Shown piece after piece: positions 16,130 through 30,526 of a stretch of DNA of 64,000 nt (within the stretch, counting starts at the first letter, position 1; the number at the start of each line of letters is the position of its first letter). The translations under genes were made by a program, and so were the position numbers. Source of the DNA: Escherichia coli. GTDB taxonomy: Bacteria > Pseudomonadota > Gammaproteobacteria > Enterobacterales > Enterobacteriaceae. The notes under the pieces are model-generated. The model was given only the letters and a program-made list of their open reading frames with translations. It ran no database searches and was not told the origin of the DNA. Location: the NCBI RefSeq assembly GCF_024298765.1, contig NZ_CP101210.1; one strand, written 5' to 3'.

Positions 16130-17574
16130 CGCTGGATACGCTTAATGTGATGCTGGCCGTCAGCGAAGAGGGATTGATCGAAGAGATGATCATCGCGCTG
16201 CTGGCCTCACCGCAGCTGGCGGTCTTCTTTGAAAAATTCCCACGACTGAAGGCGGCAATCACTGATGATGTTCCCCGCTGGCGTGAGGCGCTGCGCAGTC
16301 GGCTGAAAGATGCCCGAGTCCCGCCGGAACTCACCGAAGAGGTGATGTGCTATCAGCAAAGCCAGCTCCTCTCCACGCCGCAGTTTATTGTGCAGCTACC
16401 ACAGATCCTGGACTTACTGCATCGTCTGAATTCTCCATGGGCAGAACAAGCCCGACAGTTGGTTGATGCTAACAGTACGATCACTTCAGCGTTACACACG
16501 CTTTTTCTCCAGCGCTGGCGTTTAAGTCTGATCGTGCAAGCAACGACGCTAAATCAGCAGCTATTAGAAGAAGAACGCGAACAACTGTTGAGTGAAGTTC
16601 AGGAACGCATGACGCTGAGCGGGCAACTTGAACCGATTCTCGCAGATAACAATACCGCAGCTGGTCGTCTGTGGGATATGAGCGCCGGTCAGCTTAAACG
16701 CGGCGACTATCAGTTGATTGTGAAATACGGTGAATTTCTTAACGAACAGCCGGAACTGAAACGCCTGGCAGAACAGTTGGGGCGTTCACGGGAAGCCAAA
16801 TCAATACCGCGCAACGATGCGCAGATGGAAACCTTCCGCACCATGGTGCGCGAACCGGCGACGGTTCCTGAGCAGGTTGATGGTCTGCAACAAAGCGATG
16901 ATATTTTACGTCTCCTGCCGCCAGAACTGGCGACACTGGGGATAACGGAACTGGAGTATGAGTTTTACCGTCGGCTGGTGGAAAAACAGTTGCTCACCTA
17001 TCGCCTGCACGGTGAGTCGTGGCGTGAAAAAGTGATCGAACGCCCGGTGGTACATAAAGATTACGACGAACAGCCGCGCGGACCGTTTATTGTCTGTGTG
17101 GATACTTCCGGCTCAATGGGCGGCTTTAATGAACAGTGTGCGAAAGCGTTCTGCCTGGCCTTGATGCGCATTGCTCTCGCTGAAAACCGGCGCTGCTATA
17201 TTATGTTATTTTCCACCGAGATCGTCCGTTATGAGCTTTCAGGCCCACAAGGCATCGAACAAGCAATCCGTTTTTTAAGCCAGCAGTTTCGTGGCGGCAC
17301 CGATCTTGCCAGTTGTTTTCGCGCCATTATGGAACGCTTGCAAAGCAGGGAATGGTTTGATGCCGATGCGGTGGTGATTTCTGATTTTATCGCCCAGCGG
17401 TTGCCTGACGACGTGACGAGTAAAGTGAAAGAGCTACAGCGCGTACATCAGCATCGCTTTCATGCCGTGGCGATGTCTGCACATGGCAAACCCGGCATCA
17501 TGCGCATTTTCGATCATATCTGGCGCTTTGATACCGGGATGCGAAGCCGCCTGCTCAGACGCTGGCGGCGATAA
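16123..17574 (+). CDS. viaA: VWA-domain protein ViaA (RavA partner)
   Basis: 483 aa; C-terminal von Willebrand A domain with MIDAS motif DTSGSM; 7-nt overlap with the ravA stop suggests translational coupling. Confidence 0.92.
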
Positions 17575-18722: not shown

Positions 18723-19181
18723 ATGGAAAATTATCTAATCGACAATCTGGACCGTGGCATCCTGGAAGCATTAATGGGCAATGCGCGCACCGCTTACGCC
18801 GAACTGGCGAAACAATTTGGCGTCAGTCCGGGGACGATTCACGTTCGAGTAGAGAAAATGAAGCAGGCGGGGATCATTACCGGGGCGCGTATTGATGTCA
18901 GCCCGAAGCAGCTCGGTTATGACGTAGGCTGCTTTATCGGCATTATATTAAAGAGCGCCAAAGACTATCCTTCCGCGCTGGCGAAACTGGAAAGCCTTGA
19001 TGAAGTCACTGAAGCCTATTACACCACCGGCCACTACAGCATCTTTATAAAAGTGATGTGCCGTTCGATCGACGCTCTCCAGCATGTACTTATCAACAAG
19101 ATCCAAACAATTGATGAAATTCAGTCCACCGAGACATTGATCGTCCTGCAAAACCCGATCATGCGTACCATCAAGCCCTGA
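18723..19181 (+). CDS. asnC: AsnC/Lrp-family regulator of asnA
   Basis: 152 aa; N-terminal HTH (RTAYAELAKQFGVSPGTIHVRVEKMKQAGII); transcribed divergently from asnA. Confidence 0.95.
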   Translation: MENYLIDNLDRGILEALMGNARTAYAELAKQFGVSPGTIHVRVEKMKQAGIITGARIDVSPKQLGYDVGCFIGIILKSAKDYPSALAKLESLDEVTEAYYTTGHYSIFIKVMCRSIDALQHVLINKIQTIDEIQSTETLIVLQNPIMRTIKP

Positions 19182-19202
19182 TCGGCTTTTTTAATCCCAT
19201 AC

Positions 19203-19211
19203 TTTTCCACA
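19203..19211 (+). promoter_or_regulatory. DnaA-box-like site in mioC promoter
   Basis: TTTTCCACA (one mismatch to TTATCCACA) lies just upstream of a TACAAT -10-like hexamer preceding mioC. Confidence 0.55.
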
Positions 19212-19270
19212 GGTAGATCCCAACGCGTTCACAGCGTACAATATGCCACTCTTAATAAAGGTGGCGGTTT

Positions 19271-19714
19271 ATGGCAGATATCACTCTTATCAGCGGCAGC
19301 ACCCTCGGCGGTGCCGAATATGTAGCAGAACACCTGGCTGAAAAGCTGGAAGAGGCGGGTTTTACCACCGAAACGCTGCACGGTCCGCTGTTGGAAGATT
19401 TATCTGCCTCTGGGATCTGGCTGGTTATCAGCTCAACCCACGGTGCCGGAGATATTCCGGACAACCTTTCTCCTTTCTATGAAGCATTGCAGGAACAGAA
19501 GCCCGATCTTTCTGCGGTCCGCTTTGGCGCAATCGGTATTGGTAGTCGTGAATATGACACCTTTTGTGGGGCTATCGATAAACTCGAGGCAGAACTCAAA
19601 AATTCCGGTGCAAAACAGACAGGCGAAACACTGAAGATCAACATTCTTGATCACGACATTCCGGAAGATCCGGCAGAAGAATGGCTGGGATCGTGGATTA
19701 ATTTACTCAAATAA
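19271..19714 (+). CDS. mioC: FMN-binding flavodoxin-like protein MioC
   Basis: 147 aa flavodoxin fold (ISGSTLGGAEYVAEHL...) immediately adjacent to oriC. Confidence 0.95.
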   Translation: MADITLISGSTLGGAEYVAEHLAEKLEEAGFTTETLHGPLLEDLSASGIWLVISSTHGAGDIPDNLSPFYEALQEQKPDLSAVRFGAIGIGSREYDTFCGAIDKLEAELKNSGAKQTGETLKINILDHDIPEDPAEEWLGSWINLLK

Positions 19715-19720
19715 GTATAC

Positions 19721-20004
19721 AGATCGTGCGATCTACTGTGGATAACTCTGTCAGGAAGCTTGGATCAACCGGTAGTTATCCAAAGAACAACCGTTGTTCA
19801 GTTTTTGAGTTGTGTATAACCCCTCATTCTGATCCCAGCTTATACGGTCCAGGATCACCGATCATTCACAGTTAATGATCCTTTCCAGGTTGTTGATCTT
19901 AAAAGCCGGATCCTTGTTATCCACAGGGCAGTGCGATCCTAATAAGAGATCACAATAGAACAGATCTCTAAATAAATAGATCTTCTTTTTAATACCCAGG
20001 ATCC
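19721..20004. other. oriC chromosomal replication origin (DnaA boxes R1-R4, three 13-mers/DUE, GATC cluster)
   Basis: Reverse-complement orientation of the canonical E. coli oriC. DnaA boxes: TGTGGATAA (about 19737-19745, R4), TTATCCAAA (about 19776-19784), TGTGTATAA (about 19811-19819, R2), TTATCCACA (about 19917-19925, R1). 13-mers as reverse complements: CTAATAAGAGATC, AATAGAACAGATC, AAATAAATAGATC (19939-19982). Multiple GATC sites; GGATCC at the mnmG-proximal boundary. Confidence 0.95.
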
Positions 20005-20092
20005 CAGGTCTTTCTCAAGCCGACAAAGTTGAGTAGAATCCACGGCCCGGGCTTCAATCCATTTTCATACCGCGTTATGCGAGGCAATCACC

Positions 20093-21982
20093 ATGTTTTA
20101 TCCGGATCCTTTTGACGTCATCATCATTGGCGGGGGTCATGCAGGCACCGAGGCCGCGATGGCCGCGGCGCGTATGGGTCAACAGACTCTGCTTTTGACA
20201 CACAATATCGACACTCTGGGGCAGATGAGCTGCAACCCGGCGATCGGCGGTATTGGGAAGGGACATCTGGTAAAAGAAGTGGATGCACTCGGCGGTCTGA
20301 TGGCGAAAGCGATCGATCAGGCGGGTATCCAGTTTAGGATACTAAACGCAAGCAAGGGACCGGCGGTTCGCGCTACCCGAGCTCAGGCGGATCGTGTGCT
20401 CTACCGTCAGGCGGTACGTACGGCGCTGGAGAACCAACCGAACCTGATGATCTTCCAGCAGGCGGTTGAAGATCTTATTGTCGAAAACGATCGCGTGGTC
20501 GGTGCTGTTACCCAAATGGGACTGAAGTTCCGTGCCAAAGCCGTCGTGCTCACCGTTGGGACGTTCCTGGACGGTAAAATTCATATCGGTCTGGATAACT
20601 ACAGCGGTGGCCGTGCTGGTGATCCGCCGTCCATTCCGCTTTCTCGCCGTTTGCGTGAACTGCCGCTGCGCGTTGGTCGTCTGAAAACCGGGACTCCGCC
20701 GCGTATTGATGCTCGAACCATAGACTTTAGCGTGCTGGCGCAACAGCATGGCGATAACCCAATGCCGGTATTCTCGTTTATGGGTAATGCGTCCCAGCAT
20801 CCACAGCAGGTGCCGTGTTATATCACTCATACCAACGAGAAAACCCATGATGTGATCCGCAGTAACCTCGATCGTAGCCCAATGTACGCAGGGGTGATCG
20901 AAGGTGTCGGCCCACGCTACTGCCCGTCGATCGAAGACAAAGTCATGCGCTTCGCCGACAGAAATCAGCATCAGATCTTCCTTGAACCGGAAGGGCTGAC
21001 CTCAAACGAAATTTATCCGAACGGTATCTCCACCAGCCTGCCGTTCGATGTGCAGATGCAAATCGTCCGCTCCATGCAGGGGATGGAAAACGCGAAGATC
21101 GTGCGTCCAGGTTATGCCATTGAGTATGACTTCTTCGATCCACGCGACCTGAAACCGACGCTGGAGAGCAAGTTTATCCAGGGGCTGTTCTTTGCTGGTC
21201 AGATTAACGGCACTACCGGTTACGAAGAAGCCGCTGCGCAAGGTTTGCTGGCTGGTCTTAACGCTGCCCGTCTGTCTGCAGACAAAGAAGGTTGGGCTCC
21301 AGCGCGTTCTCAGGCGTATCTCGGCGTACTGGTTGATGACCTGTGCACTTTAGGAACCAAAGAACCGTATCGTATGTTTACCTCGCGCGCAGAATATCGT
21401 CTGATGCTGCGCGAAGATAATGCAGATCTGCGTTTGACTGAAATCGGTCGTGAACTGGGCCTGGTGGATGACGAACGTTGGGCGCGCTTTAACGAGAAAC
21501 TTGAGAATATCGAGCGTGAGCGTCAGCGTCTGAAATCGACCTGGGTAACCCCGTCGGCGGAAGCTGCAGCCGAAGTGAATGCTCACCTGACTGCGCCGCT
21601 TTCCCGTGAAGCCAGTGGTGAAGATCTGCTACGTCGTCCTGAAATGACTTATGAAAAATTAACCACGCTGACACCGTTTGCCCCTGCGTTGACAGATGAA
21701 CAGGCTGCGGAACAGGTTGAGATTCAGGTTAAATACGAAGGTTATATCGCGCGCCAGCAAGATGAGATCGAAAAGCAGCTGCGTAACGAGAATACCCTGC
21801 TACCAGCGACGCTGGATTACCGCCAGGTATCCGGTCTTTCTAACGAAGTGATCGCCAAACTTAACGATCACAAACCGGCCTCTATTGGCCAGGCTTCGCG
21901 TATTTCTGGCGTCACGCCTGCGGCTATCTCCATTCTGCTGGTGTGGCTGAAAAAACAGGGTATGCTGCGTCGTAGCGCATAA
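20093..21982 (+). CDS. mnmG: tRNA uridine-5-carboxymethylaminomethyl modification enzyme MnmG (GidA)
   Basis: 629 aa; N-terminal FAD-binding motif [15 protein letters not shown]. Confidence 0.96.
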
Positions 21983-23285: not shown

Positions 23286-24490
<1,205 letters not shown>

Positions 24491-24518
24491 TTTACCAACA
24501 CTACTACGTTTTAACTGA

Positions 24519-24793
<275 letters not shown>

Positions 24794-24837
24794 TAAAGAG
24801 CAATATCAGAACGTTAACTAAATAGAGGCATTGTGCT

Positions 24838-25308
24838 GTGAATCTTAACGCAACAATCCTCGGCCAGGCCATCGCGTTTGTCCTGTTCGTTCTGTTCTGC
24901 ATGAAGTACGTATGGCCGCCATTAATGGCAGCCATCGAAAAACGTCAAAAAGAAATTGCTGACGGCCTTGCTTCCGCAGAACGAGCACATAAGGACCTTG
25001 ACCTTGCAAAGGCCAGCGCGACCGACCAGCTGAAAAAAGCGAAAGCGGAAGCCCAGGTAATCATCGAGCAGGCTAACAAACGCCGCTCGCAGATTCTGGA
25101 CGAAGCGAAAGCTGAGGCAGAACAGGAACGTACTAAAATCGTGGCCCAGGCGCAGGCGGAAATTGAAGCCGAGCGTAAACGTGCCCGTGAAGAGCTGCGT
25201 AAGCAAGTTGCTATCCTGGCTGTTGCTGGCGCCGAGAAGATCATCGAACGTTCCGTGGATGAAGCTGCTAACAGCGACATCGTGGATAAACTTGTCGCTG
25301 AACTGTAA
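24838..25308 (+). CDS. atpF: F0F1 ATP synthase subunit b
   Basis: 156 aa; single N-terminal TM helix then a long charged coiled coil; GTG start. Confidence 0.95.
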
Positions 25309-25322
25309 GGAGGGAGGGGCTG

Positions 25323-25856
25323 ATGTCTGAATTTATTACGGTAGCTCGCCCCTACGCCAAAGCAGCTTTTGACTTTGCCGTCGAACACCAAAGTGTAGAA
25401 CGCTGGCAGGACATGCTGGCGTTTGCCGCCGAGGTAACCAAAAACGAACAAATGGCAGAGCTTCTCTCTGGCGCGCTTGCGCCAGAAACGCTCGCCGAGT
25501 CGTTTATCGCAGTTTGTGGTGAGCAACTGGACGAAAACGGTCAGAACCTGATTCGGGTTATGGCTGAAAATGGTCGTCTTAACGCGCTCCCGGATGTTCT
25601 GGAGCAGTTTATTCACCTGCGTGCCGTGAGTGAGGCTACCGCTGAGGTAGACGTCATTTCCGCTGCCGCACTGAGTGAACAACAGCTCGCGAAAATTTCT
25701 GCTGCGATGGAAAAACGTCTGTCACGCAAAGTTAAGCTGAATTGCAAAATCGATAAGTCTGTAATGGCAGGCGTTATCATCCGAGCGGGTGATATGGTCA
25801 TTGATGGCAGCGTACGCGGTCGTCTTGAGCGCCTTGCAGACGTCTTGCAGTCTTAA
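25323..25856 (+). CDS. atpH: F0F1 ATP synthase subunit delta
   Basis: 177 aa ORF in the conserved operon position between b and alpha. Confidence 0.95.
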
Positions 25857-25868
25857 GGGGACTGGAGC

Positions 25869-27410
25869 ATGCAACTGAATTCCACCGAAATCAGCGAACT
25901 GATCAAGCAGCGCATTGCTCAGTTCAATGTTGTGAGTGAAGCTCACAACGAAGGTACTATTGTTTCTGTAAGTGACGGTGTTATCCGCATTCACGGCCTG
26001 GCCGATTGTATGCAGGGTGAAATGATCTCCCTGCCGGGTAACCGTTACGCTATCGCACTGAACCTCGAGCGCGACTCTGTAGGTGCGGTTGTTATGGGTC
26101 CGTACGCTGACCTTGCCGAAGGCATGAAAGTTAAGTGTACTGGCCGTATCCTGGAAGTTCCGGTTGGCCGTGGCCTGCTGGGCCGTGTGGTTAACACTCT
26201 GGGTGCACCAATCGACGGTAAAGGTCCGCTGGATCACGACGGCTTCTCTGCTGTAGAAGCAATCGCTCCGGGCGTTATCGAACGTCAGTCCGTAGATCAG
26301 CCGGTACAGACCGGTTATAAAGCCGTTGACTCCATGATCCCAATCGGTCGTGGTCAGCGTGAATTGATCATCGGTGACCGTCAGACCGGTAAAACCGCAC
26401 TGGCTATCGATGCCATCATCAACCAGCGCGATTCCGGTATCAAATGTATCTATGTCGCTATCGGCCAAAAAGCGTCCACCATTTCTAACGTGGTACGTAA
26501 ACTGGAAGAGCACGGCGCACTGGCTAACACCATCGTTGTGGTAGCAACCGCGTCTGAATCCGCTGCACTGCAATACCTGGCACCGTACGCTGGTTGTGCA
26601 ATGGGCGAATACTTCCGTGACCGCGGTGAAGATGCGCTGATCATTTACGATGACCTGTCTAAACAGGCTGTTGCTTACCGTCAGATCTCCCTGCTGCTCC
26701 GTCGTCCGCCAGGACGTGAAGCATTCCCGGGCGACGTATTCTACCTCCACTCTCGTCTGCTGGAGCGTGCTGCGCGTGTTAACGCCGAATACGTTGAAGC
26801 CTTCACCAAAGGTGAAGTGAAAGGGAAAACCGGTTCTCTGACTGCGCTGCCGATTATCGAAACTCAGGCGGGTGACGTTTCTGCGTTCGTTCCAACCAAC
26901 GTAATCTCCATTACCGATGGTCAGATCTTCCTGGAAACCAACCTGTTCAACGCCGGTATTCGTCCTGCGGTTAACCCGGGTATTTCCGTATCCCGTGTTG
27001 GTGGTGCAGCACAGACCAAGATCATGAAAAAACTGTCCGGTGGTATCCGTACCGCTCTGGCACAGTATCGTGAACTGGCAGCGTTCTCTCAGTTTGCATC
27101 CGACCTTGACGATGCAACACGTAAGCAGCTTGACCACGGTCAGAAAGTGACCGAACTGCTGAAGCAGAAACAGTATGCGCCGATGTCTGTTGCGCAACAG
27201 TCTCTGGTTCTGTTCGCAGCAGAACGTGGTTACCTGGCGGATGTAGAACTGTCGAAAATCGGCAGCTTCGAAGCCGCTCTGCTGGCTTACGTCGACCGTG
27301 ATCACGCTCCGTTGATGCAAGAGATCAACCAGACCGGTGGCTACAACGACGAAATCGAAGGCAAGCTGAAAGGCATCCTCGATTCCTTCAAAGCAACCCA
27401 ATCCTGGTAA
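25869..27410 (+). CDS. atpA: F0F1 ATP synthase subunit alpha
   Basis: 513 aa; Walker [10 protein letters not shown]. Confidence 0.97.
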
Positions 27411-27460
27411 CGTCTGGCGGCTTGCCTTAGGGCAGGCCGCAAGGCATTGAGGAGAAGCTC

Positions 27461-29733
<2,273 letters not shown>

Positions 29734-29753
29734 CGCCTTAATCGGAGGGTGAT

Positions 29754-30173
29754 ATGGCAATGACTTACCACCTGGACGTCGTCAGCGCAGAGCAACAAAT
29801 GTTCTCTGGTCTGGTCGAGAAAATCCAGGTAACGGGTAGCGAAGGTGAACTGGGGATCTACCCTGGCCACGCACCGCTGCTCACCGCCATTAAGCCTGGT
29901 ATGATTCGCATCGTGAAACAGCACGGTCACGAAGAGTTTATCTATCTGTCTGGCGGCATTCTTGAAGTGCAGCCTGGCAACGTGACTGTTCTGGCCGACA
30001 CCGCAATTCGCGGCCAGGATCTCGACGAAGCGCGAGCCATGGAAGCGAAACGTAAGGCTGAAGAGCACATTAGCAGCTCTCACGGCGACGTAGATTACGC
30101 TCAGGCGTCTGCGGAACTGGCCAAAGCGATCGCGCAGCTGCGCGTTATCGAGTTGACCAAAAAAGCGATGTAA
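29754..30173 (+). CDS. atpC: F0F1 ATP synthase subunit epsilon
   Basis: 139 aa ORF starting [19 protein letters not shown]. Confidence 0.96.
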
Positions 30174-30226: not shown

Positions 30227-30526
30227 CGCGTATTGACCCGTCCTGAAAAGCGTTCACATAGATTCTGATGATATAAAACACCCCTGTTTTCCCGTTTATT
30301 CATTGATCGAAATAAGAGCAAAAACATCCACCTGACGCTTAAATGAAGGTACTGCCTTAATTTTCTGCAGACAAAAGGCGTGACGATGGTCGAAAATGGC
30401 GCTTTCGTCAGCGGGGATAATCCGTTATTGAACAATTTATCCTCTGTCCATTTCACGATGAAAAAAATGTAGTTTTTTCAAGGTGAAGCGGTTTAAATTC
30501 GTTCTCAAATTACAGTCAGGACGCGT

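What the first reader, a model, noticed from the sequence alone, without database searches (positions are those of the whole stretch)
19721..20004. Complete oriC with all canonical elements
The interval between mioC and mnmG contains the canonical E. coli origin in reverse-complement orientation: four high-affinity DnaA boxes, the three AT-rich 13-mers of the DNA-unwinding element next to the mnmG side, and a dense cluster of GATC Dam sites. This shows the window spans the replication origin. The rrn and atp operons on either side are transcribed away from oriC (co-directional with the forks), while mioC transcription reads into the origin. It is well-characterised biology and is reported for completeness.
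Basis: partly seen in the sequence, partly recalled or inferred. Interest (0 to 1): 0.3.

Follow-up and report, generated by a model that had tools for sequence, protein, structure and literature searches.

The report
E. coli chromosomal replication origin oriC
This is the ordinary, textbook chromosomal replication origin (oriC) of Escherichia coli, intact and in its usual place between mioC and mnmG, so the finding is correct but already fully known.

Summary
The 378-bp mioC–mnmG intergenic region (window 19715-20092) is 377/378 identical to E. coli K-12 MG1655, reverse-complemented. It carries every canonical oriC element: AT-cluster, the L/M/R 13-mers, DnaA boxes R1, R5M, R2, R3 and R4, all low-affinity box positions, the IHF and Fis sites, and 11 GATC in the minimal 245 bp (14 in the reported interval). 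The cumulative G-C minimum of the 64-kb window falls at 20125, next to the unwinding element. rrn (- strand) and atp (+ strand) are transcribed away from the origin. mioC points into it, with no terminator-like site between.

The one difference from MG1655 (window 19792, classical position 213) is the unspecified central base of the Fis 15-mer, outside any DnaA box. It is a common tri-allelic polymorphism: the window's 61-mer is exact in 1269 of 5404 complete E. coli genomes.

One detail is imprecise. Only three boxes match TTATNCACA. By the literature R1 and R4 are high affinity, R2 moderate and R3 low, so there are not "four high-affinity" boxes.

Verdict: already known, low interest.

The parts
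19271..19714 (+). mioC (FMN-binding flavodoxin-like protein), transcribed towards oriC
   Evidence: 147-aa ORF. Pfam Flavodoxin_1, E = 3e-28. Annotated mioC in the coordinate-identical record NZ_CP024138.1.
19203..19211 (+). DnaA-box-like 9-mer TTTTCCACA between asnC and mioC, at the position of the mioC promoter DnaA box
   Evidence: One-mismatch match to TTATNCACA. A role in DnaA repression of mioC is from PMC10380432 and my own knowledge; it was not tested here.
19737..19745 (-). DnaA box R4 (TTATCCACA), the right end of the DnaA-oligomerization region
   Evidence: Exact consensus match. Mean identity 0.98 across 113 Enterobacterales species.
19749..19757 (-). Low-affinity DnaA box C1 (TTCCTGACA)
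   Evidence: Identical to MG1655. Position inferred from the 2-4 bp spacing rule (PMC5742627) and from memory of Rozgaja et al. 2011.
19760..19768 (-). Low-affinity DnaA box I3 (TTGATCCAA), contains a GATC
   Evidence: The box sequence is from memory of McGarry et al. 2004.
19771..19790 (-). Low-affinity DnaA boxes C2 (19771-19779) and C3 (19782-19790). They overlap the classical R3 box TTATCCAAA, which reads on the plus strand at 19776-19784.
   Evidence: R3 has one mismatch to the consensus. C3 is placed by the 20-bp R2-C3 spacing (PMC5742627). Sequence identical to MG1655.
19785..19799 (.). Fis-binding 15-mer GAACAAC-G-GTTGTTC (palindromic). It holds the only difference from MG1655, at its central base 19792.
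   Evidence: Matches all six specified positions of GnnYAnnnnnTRnnC, the consensus given in PMC10380432, by direct reading. SNP. Tri-allelic in E. coli.
19811..19819 (-). DnaA box R2 (TTATACACA), moderate affinity
   Evidence: Exact consensus match. Mean identity 0.93 across species.
19829..19859 (+). Low-affinity DnaA boxes I2 (19829-19837), I1 (19840-19848) and tau2 (19851-19859)
   Evidence: Identical to MG1655. Positions from the 2-bp spacing and the 9-bp I2-R2 gap (PMC5742627). Mean identity across species is 0.89 for I2 and 0.85 for I1.
19862..19870 (+). DnaA box R5M (TCATTCACA)
   Evidence: The R5M-tau2 19-mer is exact in at least 120 Enterobacterales species genomes.
19873..19881 (+). 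Low-affinity DnaA box tau1 (approximate placement)
   Evidence: Identical to MG1655. Placed by the spacing rule.
19886..19898 (-). IHF-binding site (GATCAACAACCTG)
   Evidence: Lies between R1 and R5M. Matches 7 of 9 specified positions of WATCAANNNNTTR (consensus from PMC5742627). Identical to MG1655.
19917..19925 (+). DnaA box R1 (TTATCCACA), the left end of the DnaA-oligomerization region, in opposite orientation to R4
   Evidence: Exact consensus match. Mean identity 0.98 across species.
19939..19982 (-). Duplex-unwinding element: 13-mers R (19939-19951), M (19954-19966) and L (19970-19982)
   Evidence: This is the highest-AT stretch of the intergenic region (0.72-0.75). Identical to MG1655.
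19983..19994 (-). 12-bp AT-cluster flanking the L 13-mer, just outside the minimal oriC
   Evidence: The element is described in PMC10380432.
20012..20039 (+). Promoter-like site (TTCTCA-16-TAGAAT) upstream of mnmG, reading away from oriC
   Evidence: Consensus scan. The number of such sites in the region is no higher than in shuffles, so identification as the gidA/mnmG promoter is inference.
20093..21982 (+). mnmG (gidA), transcribed away from oriC
   Evidence: 629-aa ORF. Pfam GIDA, E = 1e-176. Annotation.

Best explanation
Window 19737-19994, inside the reported 19721-20004, is the single chromosomal replication origin oriC of an Escherichia coli strain. It lies in the reverse-complement orientation relative to the MG1655 convention.

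The mechanism below is taken from the literature on this exact sequence; it was not tested here.

- **DnaA assembly:** DnaA sits on the consensus boxes R1, R2 and R4. ATP-DnaA then fills two oppositely oriented arrays of low-affinity boxes: R1-tau1-R5M-tau2-I1-I2, and R4-C1-I3-C2-C3.
- **Unwinding:** IHF bends the DNA between R1 and R5M, and the AT-rich 13-mers next to mnmG unwind. DnaB is loaded for two forks, which leave towards rrnC (leftwards in the window) and towards atp (rightwards).
- **Re-initiation control:** the 11 GATC sites allow SeqA to sequester the hemimethylated origin after firing.
- **Flanking transcription:** transcription from mioC enters the origin and transcription of mnmG leaves it.
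For: - **Identity to the reference origin:** 377/378 with the MG1655 mioC-mnmG intergenic region, and 231/232 with the feature annotated oriC in NC_000913.3.
- **Presence across E. coli:** found in 5424 of 5426 complete genomes, chromosomes only, with a median of one place per genome.
- **Elements:** all located and intact.
- **GATC density:** 14 per 284 bp, against a window mean of 1.39 and a maximum elsewhere of 7.
- **GC skew:** cumulative G-C minimum at 20125. Skew is -0.034 on the left arm (rrn excluded) and +0.037 on the right arm. No block shuffle out of 2000 reaches the V depth.
- **Synteny:** the first 50 kb match an E. coli chromosome base for base (8 mismatches). The gene order is rrnC-yieP-mdtD-rbs-kup-ravA-viaA-asnA-asnC-mioC-oriC-mnmG-rsmG-atp-glmUS. 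The last 14 kb agree only partly by direct test: 50001-57000 lie in the 100%-identical match, and 57001-64000 rest on the annotation of the matching record.
- **Selection on the elements:** in 113 Enterobacterales species the boxes are far better conserved than the spacers. R1 0.98, R4 0.98, R2 0.93 and the R 13-mer 0.94, against 0.42-0.65 for spacers.
- **Box orientation:** R1 and R5M read on one strand, R2 and R4 on the other, as the two-array model requires (PMC5742627).
Against: Nothing in the sequence argues against it.

- The one difference from MG1655 (19792) lies in the Fis site. It makes the central 5 bp more G+C-rich, which from general knowledge of Fis could lower Fis affinity. Against that, the same 61-mer occurs in 1269 complete genomes including O157:H7, and the reviews say Fis binding at oriC has little or no effect on initiation (PMC10380432).
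- Function was not measured, only inferred from sequence identity.
Confidence: 0.98

Rival explanations
1. The origin is present but functionally altered: the substitution at 19792 in the Fis site changes Fis occupancy and so shifts initiation timing relative to K-12.
For: The SNP is the central base of the Fis 15-mer. From general knowledge, Fis prefers an A/T-rich centre. The site is tri-allelic in E. coli, with haplotypes of roughly equal frequency.
Against: The central base is unspecified in the Fis consensus quoted in PMC10380432. Reviews report that specific Fis binding in oriC has no or only a slight effect on initiation (PMC10380432). The window's base is the commonest state across 113 Enterobacterales species: 71 G, 26 A, 16 C on the conventional strand. 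No DnaA box or 13-mer is touched.
Confidence: 0.05
2. A chance cluster of short motifs (GATC, DnaA-box-like 9-mers, AT-rich 13-mers) in an intergenic region, not a real origin.
For: Taken over the whole window, the 13-mer and DnaA-box motifs are no more frequent than in shuffled sequence.
Against: Near-identity to the experimentally defined MG1655 oriC. GATC density ten times the window mean and twice the next best locus. The skew minimum coincides. Element-specific conservation holds across genera.
Confidence: 0.005
3. A second or displaced copy of oriC (for example on a minichromosome, a plasmid insert or a rearranged chromosome), so that the window does not span the true chromosomal origin.
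For: None found.
Against: Most of the 64-kb window is colinear with the origin region of complete E. coli chromosomes. The first 50 kb match base for base with 8 mismatches, and 33000-57000 match at 100%. All 5825 matching places in 5424 genomes are chromosomal, none on plasmids, with a median of one per genome. The skew polarity flips here.
Confidence: 0.01

Closest known systems
Escherichia coli K-12 MG1655 oriC (NC_000913.3 3925744-3925975; classical minimal oriC of 245 bp)
   Same: Same locus, same flanking genes, same order, spacing and sequence of every element. 377/378 identical across the mioC-mnmG intergenic region.
   Different: One base differs: window 19792 is C where MG1655 has T (G versus A at classical position 213). 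It is the centre of the Fis 15-mer, outside all DnaA boxes. The window is written in the opposite orientation.
oriC of other Enterobacterales (Salmonella, Klebsiella, Enterobacter, Citrobacter, Yersinia, Serratia, Pantoea, Dickeya and others)
   Same: Same architecture. R1, R4, R2, the R 13-mer and most GATC sites are conserved in 113 species; 9 of the 14 GATC sites are kept in at least 94 of the 113. R5M and tau2 say nothing here, because they were the search pattern.
   Different: Spacers, the C1 and I3 boxes and the R1-IHF spacer diverge between genera (identity to the window 0.41-0.63). The window is the E. coli form.

Membership tests
E. coli-type (enterobacterial) chromosomal origin oriC | Location in the mioC-mnmG(gidA) intergenic region of the chromosome | tested here: met
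   ORFs and Pfam. Annotation of the coordinate-identical record.
E. coli-type (enterobacterial) chromosomal origin oriC | Duplex-unwinding element: three tandem AT-rich 13-mers (GATCTnTTnTTTT) plus a flanking AT-cluster at one end | tested here: met
   L, M and R lie at 19970-19982, 19954-19966 and 19939-19951, with 1, 1 and 2 mismatches to the consensus, all on one strand. Identical to MG1655.
E. coli-type (enterobacterial) chromosomal origin oriC | [quoted passage not shown] | tested here: met
   R1 on the plus strand at 19917, R4 on the minus strand at 19737, R2 on the minus strand at 19811, all exact matches.
E. coli-type (enterobacterial) chromosomal origin oriC | Arrays of low-affinity DnaA boxes (tau1, R5M, tau2, I1, I2; C3, C2, I3, C1) spaced 2-4 bp apart | tested here: met
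   Every base of these positions is identical to MG1655. R5M, I2 and I3 were located by sequence. The others were placed by the spacing rule of PMC5742627.
E. coli-type (enterobacterial) chromosomal origin oriC | IHF site between R1 and R5M, and Fis site between R2 and C3 | tested here: met
   The IHF site at 19886-19898 matches 7 of 9 specified consensus positions and is identical to MG1655. The Fis 15-mer at 19785-19799 matches 6 of 6 specified positions, and its unspecified centre differs from MG1655.
E. coli-type (enterobacterial) chromosomal origin oriC | Eleven GATC (Dam/SeqA) sites in the minimal 245 bp | tested here: met
   11 in 19738-19982 and 14 in 19721-20004. The figure of 11 is stated in PMC5742627.
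E. coli-type (enterobacterial) chromosomal origin oriC | GC-skew polarity switch at the locus | tested here: met
   Cumulative G-C minimum at 20125. The arms have skews of -0.034 and +0.037. No block shuffle out of 2000 reaches the V depth. Only 64 kb could be examined, not the whole chromosome.
E. coli-type (enterobacterial) chromosomal origin oriC | DnaA-dependent autonomous replication and unwinding activity | not testable with these tools
   Inferred from near-identity to the experimentally defined origin.

The most novel reading that the evidence does not exclude
The central base of the oriC Fis site (window 19792) is kept as a balanced three-allele polymorphism in E. coli. Exact 61-mer counts are about 1269 genomes for C, about 1144 for T and at least 2533 for G. 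The reading would be that the alleles tune Fis occupancy, and so the growth-rate dependence of initiation, differently in different lineages.
Probability: 0.03. Interest if true: 0.35.

Novelty: already known. Interest (0 to 1): 0.05.

Why it matters
It matters only as orientation. It fixes the window on the chromosome at the origin region of an E. coli strain that carries the lpf-O113 fimbrial island. It also fixes the direction of the two replication forks, which is useful when interpreting gene orientation, skew and any other finding in this window. It adds nothing to what is known about oriC.

Tried and rejected
- **Whole-window motif enrichment:** neither the 13-mer consensus nor the DnaA-box consensus is enriched over shuffles. 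Only their clustering is informative, so the counts were not used as evidence.
- **Disruptive substitution:** the single SNP is outside all DnaA boxes and 13-mers.
- **Private mutation:** the SNP is common in E. coli and is the majority state in Enterobacterales.
- **Rfam scan:** the gathering-threshold scan found no RNA family in the origin interval.
- **Promoter and terminator scan:** it gave no more sites than in shuffles. The mnmG promoter call and the 'no terminator after mioC' statement are therefore weak on their own and lean on the literature.

Full report
**What is at the coordinates**

Reading window 19400-20400 shows an intergenic stretch between a 147-aa ORF on the plus strand (19271-19714) and a 629-aa ORF on the plus strand (20093-21982). 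Pfam identifies the first as a flavodoxin-fold protein and the second as GidA/MnmG, E = 1e-176. The record NZ_CP024138.1 matches the window base for base over its first 50 kb, with 8 mismatches and none between 19271 and 22000. It names these genes mioC and mnmG.

**Comparison with the reference origin**

NC_000913.3 annotates oriC at 3925744-3925975, between mnmG and mioC. The reverse complement of the MG1655 mioC-mnmG intergenic region has the same length as the window's, 378 bp. It differs at one position: window 19792 is C where MG1655 has T. The annotated 232-bp feature maps to window 19751-19982.

**Element map**

In the classical numbering the BamHI GGATCC is position 1, which is window 20004.

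| Element | Window coordinates | Sequence or note |
|---|---|---|
| AT-cluster | 19983-19994 | |
| 13-mer L | 19970-19982 | GATCTATTTATTT |
| 13-mer M | 19954-19966 | GATCTGTTCTATT |
| 13-mer R | 19939-19951 | GATCTCTTATTAG |
| R1 | 19917-19925 | TTATCCACA, plus strand |
| IHF site | 19886-19898 | |
| R5M | 19862-19870 | TCATTCACA, plus strand |
| I2 | 19829-19837 | |
| R2 | 19811-19819 | TTATACACA, minus strand |
| Fis 15-mer | 19785-19799 | GAACAACGGTTGTTC |
| R3 | 19776-19784 | TTATCCAAA, plus strand |
| I3 | 19760-19768 | |
| R4 | 19737-19745 | TTATCCACA, minus strand |

The remaining low-affinity boxes were placed by the 2-4 bp spacing, the 9-bp I2-R2 gap and the 20-bp R2-C3 gap given in PMC5742627. 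They are tau1, tau2, I1, C1, C2 and C3, and all are identical to MG1655. R1 and R5M read on one strand and R2 and R4 on the other, as the two-array model requires (PMC5742627).

**Is it more than chance?**

- GATC occurs 14 times in the interval and 11 times in the minimal origin, the number quoted for oriC in PMC5742627.
- The window-wide mean is 1.39 per 284 bp, and the best count outside the origin is 7.
- Motif totals over the whole window are not enriched. The 13-mer consensus gives 24 matches against 21.3 expected, and the DnaA box with up to one mismatch gives 63 against 52.1.
- The local clustering is extreme: three same-strand 13-mers in 44 bp and five box matches in 189 bp.
- AT content peaks at 0.72-0.75 over the 13-mers.

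1. *Disruptive substitutions.* There are none. The single difference is the central, unspecified base of the Fis consensus GnnYAnnnnnTRnnC (consensus from PMC10380432). It lies 2 bp outside box C3.
2. *Skew switch.* The cumulative G-C curve of the window reaches its minimum at 20125. The left arm without rrn has skew -0.034 and the right arm +0.037. None of 2000 shuffles of 1-kb blocks gives as deep a V (coarse profile). Only 64 kb could be examined.

**Surroundings**

- Rfam finds 23S rRNA (1-2031), tRNA and 16S rRNA (2377-3918) on the minus strand.
- atpIBEFHAGDC lies at 23286-30173 on the plus strand. Both operons read away from the origin, co-directional with the forks.
- mioC points into the origin, and no terminator-like site lies between its stop codon and R4. 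PMC10380432 states that RNA polymerase from mioC passes through the whole of oriC.
- A promoter-like site at 20012-20039 on the plus strand precedes mnmG. That scan is not above the shuffle background.

**Related sequences**

- The 601-bp region around the origin is present in 5424 of 5426 complete E. coli genomes, always on the chromosome, with a median of one place per genome.
- An alignment of eight E. coli strains places all variation outside R1, R2, R4, R5M, the 13-mers, the IHF site, I1, I2 and tau1/tau2.
- Variants fall at 19726, 19755 (in C1), 19769, 19784 (in R3/C3), 19792, 19793, 19926, 19929, 19997 and 19999.
- The 19-mer that spans R5M and tau2 is exact in at least 120 species genomes of Enterobacterales, out to Yersinia, Serratia, Pantoea, Dickeya and Sodalis.
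- In an alignment of 113 of these species, identity to the window is 0.98 for R1, 0.98 for R4, 0.93 for R2 and 0.94 for the R 13-mer. Spacers score 0.42-0.65. R5M and tau2 are uninformative there because they were the search pattern.

**The one curiosity**

Window 19792 is tri-allelic in E. coli. Exact-match counts for the 61-mer haplotypes are:

| Haplotype | Genomes |
|---|---|
| C at 19792 (the window) | 1269 |
| T at 19792 (MG1655) | 1144 |
| G at 19792 plus G at 19784 | 1101 |
| G at 19792 only | 896 |
| G at 19792 plus 19793A and 19769A | 536 |

Together these account for 4946 of about 5404 genomes. Across the 113 species the conventional-strand base at this position is G in 71, A in 26 and C in 16, so the window carries the commonest state. 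Reviews say that specific Fis binding in oriC affects initiation slightly or not at all (PMC10380432). The simplest reading is therefore a neutral, unconstrained position.

**Correction to the finding**

Only three boxes match TTATNCACA. The reviews class R1 and R4 as high affinity, R2 as moderate and all others as low (PMC5742627, PMC5716108). They no longer list R3 among the twelve boxes; C3 and C2 occupy that stretch. 'Four high-affinity DnaA boxes' should read 'the four classical R boxes, of which R1 and R4 are high affinity, R2 moderate and R3 low'.

**Verdict**

The finding is real and correctly interpreted, and it is entirely known biology. Function was inferred from sequence identity, not measured.

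Noticed in passing
window 19792 (also 19784, 19793, 19769): The central base of the oriC Fis 15-mer is tri-allelic across complete E. coli genomes. Exact 61-mer counts are 1269 for the C haplotype, 1144 for T, and 1101 + 896 + 536 for three G haplotypes. The position is also variable across 113 Enterobacterales species (G 71, A 26, C 16 on the conventional strand).
   Followed up: yes
window 19737-19750, against NC_000913.3 3925744-3925975: The 232-bp feature annotated 'oriC' in the MG1655 RefSeq record maps to window 19751-19982. It therefore leaves DnaA box R4 (19737-19745) and most of C1 outside the annotated origin. PGAP-annotated genomes carry no origin feature at all.
   Followed up: partly
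window 34196-39175: A long polar fimbria operon (lpfA/B/C-O113 plus a fimbrial protein gene) is inserted between glmS and pstS, with low G+C (about 0.43-0.48). In strain 120899 the same lpfA is split by an IS3-family element.
   Followed up: partly
window 30286-30443 (- strand): A full-length Rfam match to the enterobacterial sRNA STnc410 (188 bits) lies in the atpC-glmU intergenic region. It is antisense to the direction of the surrounding operons.
   Followed up: no
window 19203-19211 (+ strand): A DnaA-box-like 9-mer, TTTTCCACA, lies between asnC and mioC, where the DnaA-repressed mioC promoter is expected.
   Followed up: no
window 58888-64000 (- strand); also 4399-6541, 14633-17574 and 18723-19714 (+ strand): Several genes point towards the origin, so they are head-on to the forks. 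On the right arm these are tnaCAB, mnmE and yidC; on the left arm yieP, mdtD, ravA-viaA, asnC and mioC. GC skew dips below zero at 60-63 kb, where the right-arm genes switch strand.
   Followed up: partly
loci L005-L124: The 19-mer TGTGAATGATCGGTGATCC (R5M plus tau2, with two GATC) is exactly conserved in at least 120 species genomes, from Escherichia to Yersinia, Serratia, Pantoea, Dickeya and Sodalis-like endosymbionts.
   Followed up: partly
window 2362, 3445, 3736, 3826, 3829, 3840: Six of the eight mismatches between the window and strain 14EC020 in the first 50 kb fall in the 16S rRNA gene and the spacer next to it. This suggests heterogeneity between rrn copies or gene conversion rather than ordinary divergence.
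   Followed up: no
window 59706-59714 (+ strand), 4095, 13426, 52794: Four further exact TTATNCACA matches lie outside oriC, one of them a perfect TTATCCACA inside tnaB. About two are expected by chance in 64 kb on both strands (my own estimate, not a tool result).
   Followed up: no
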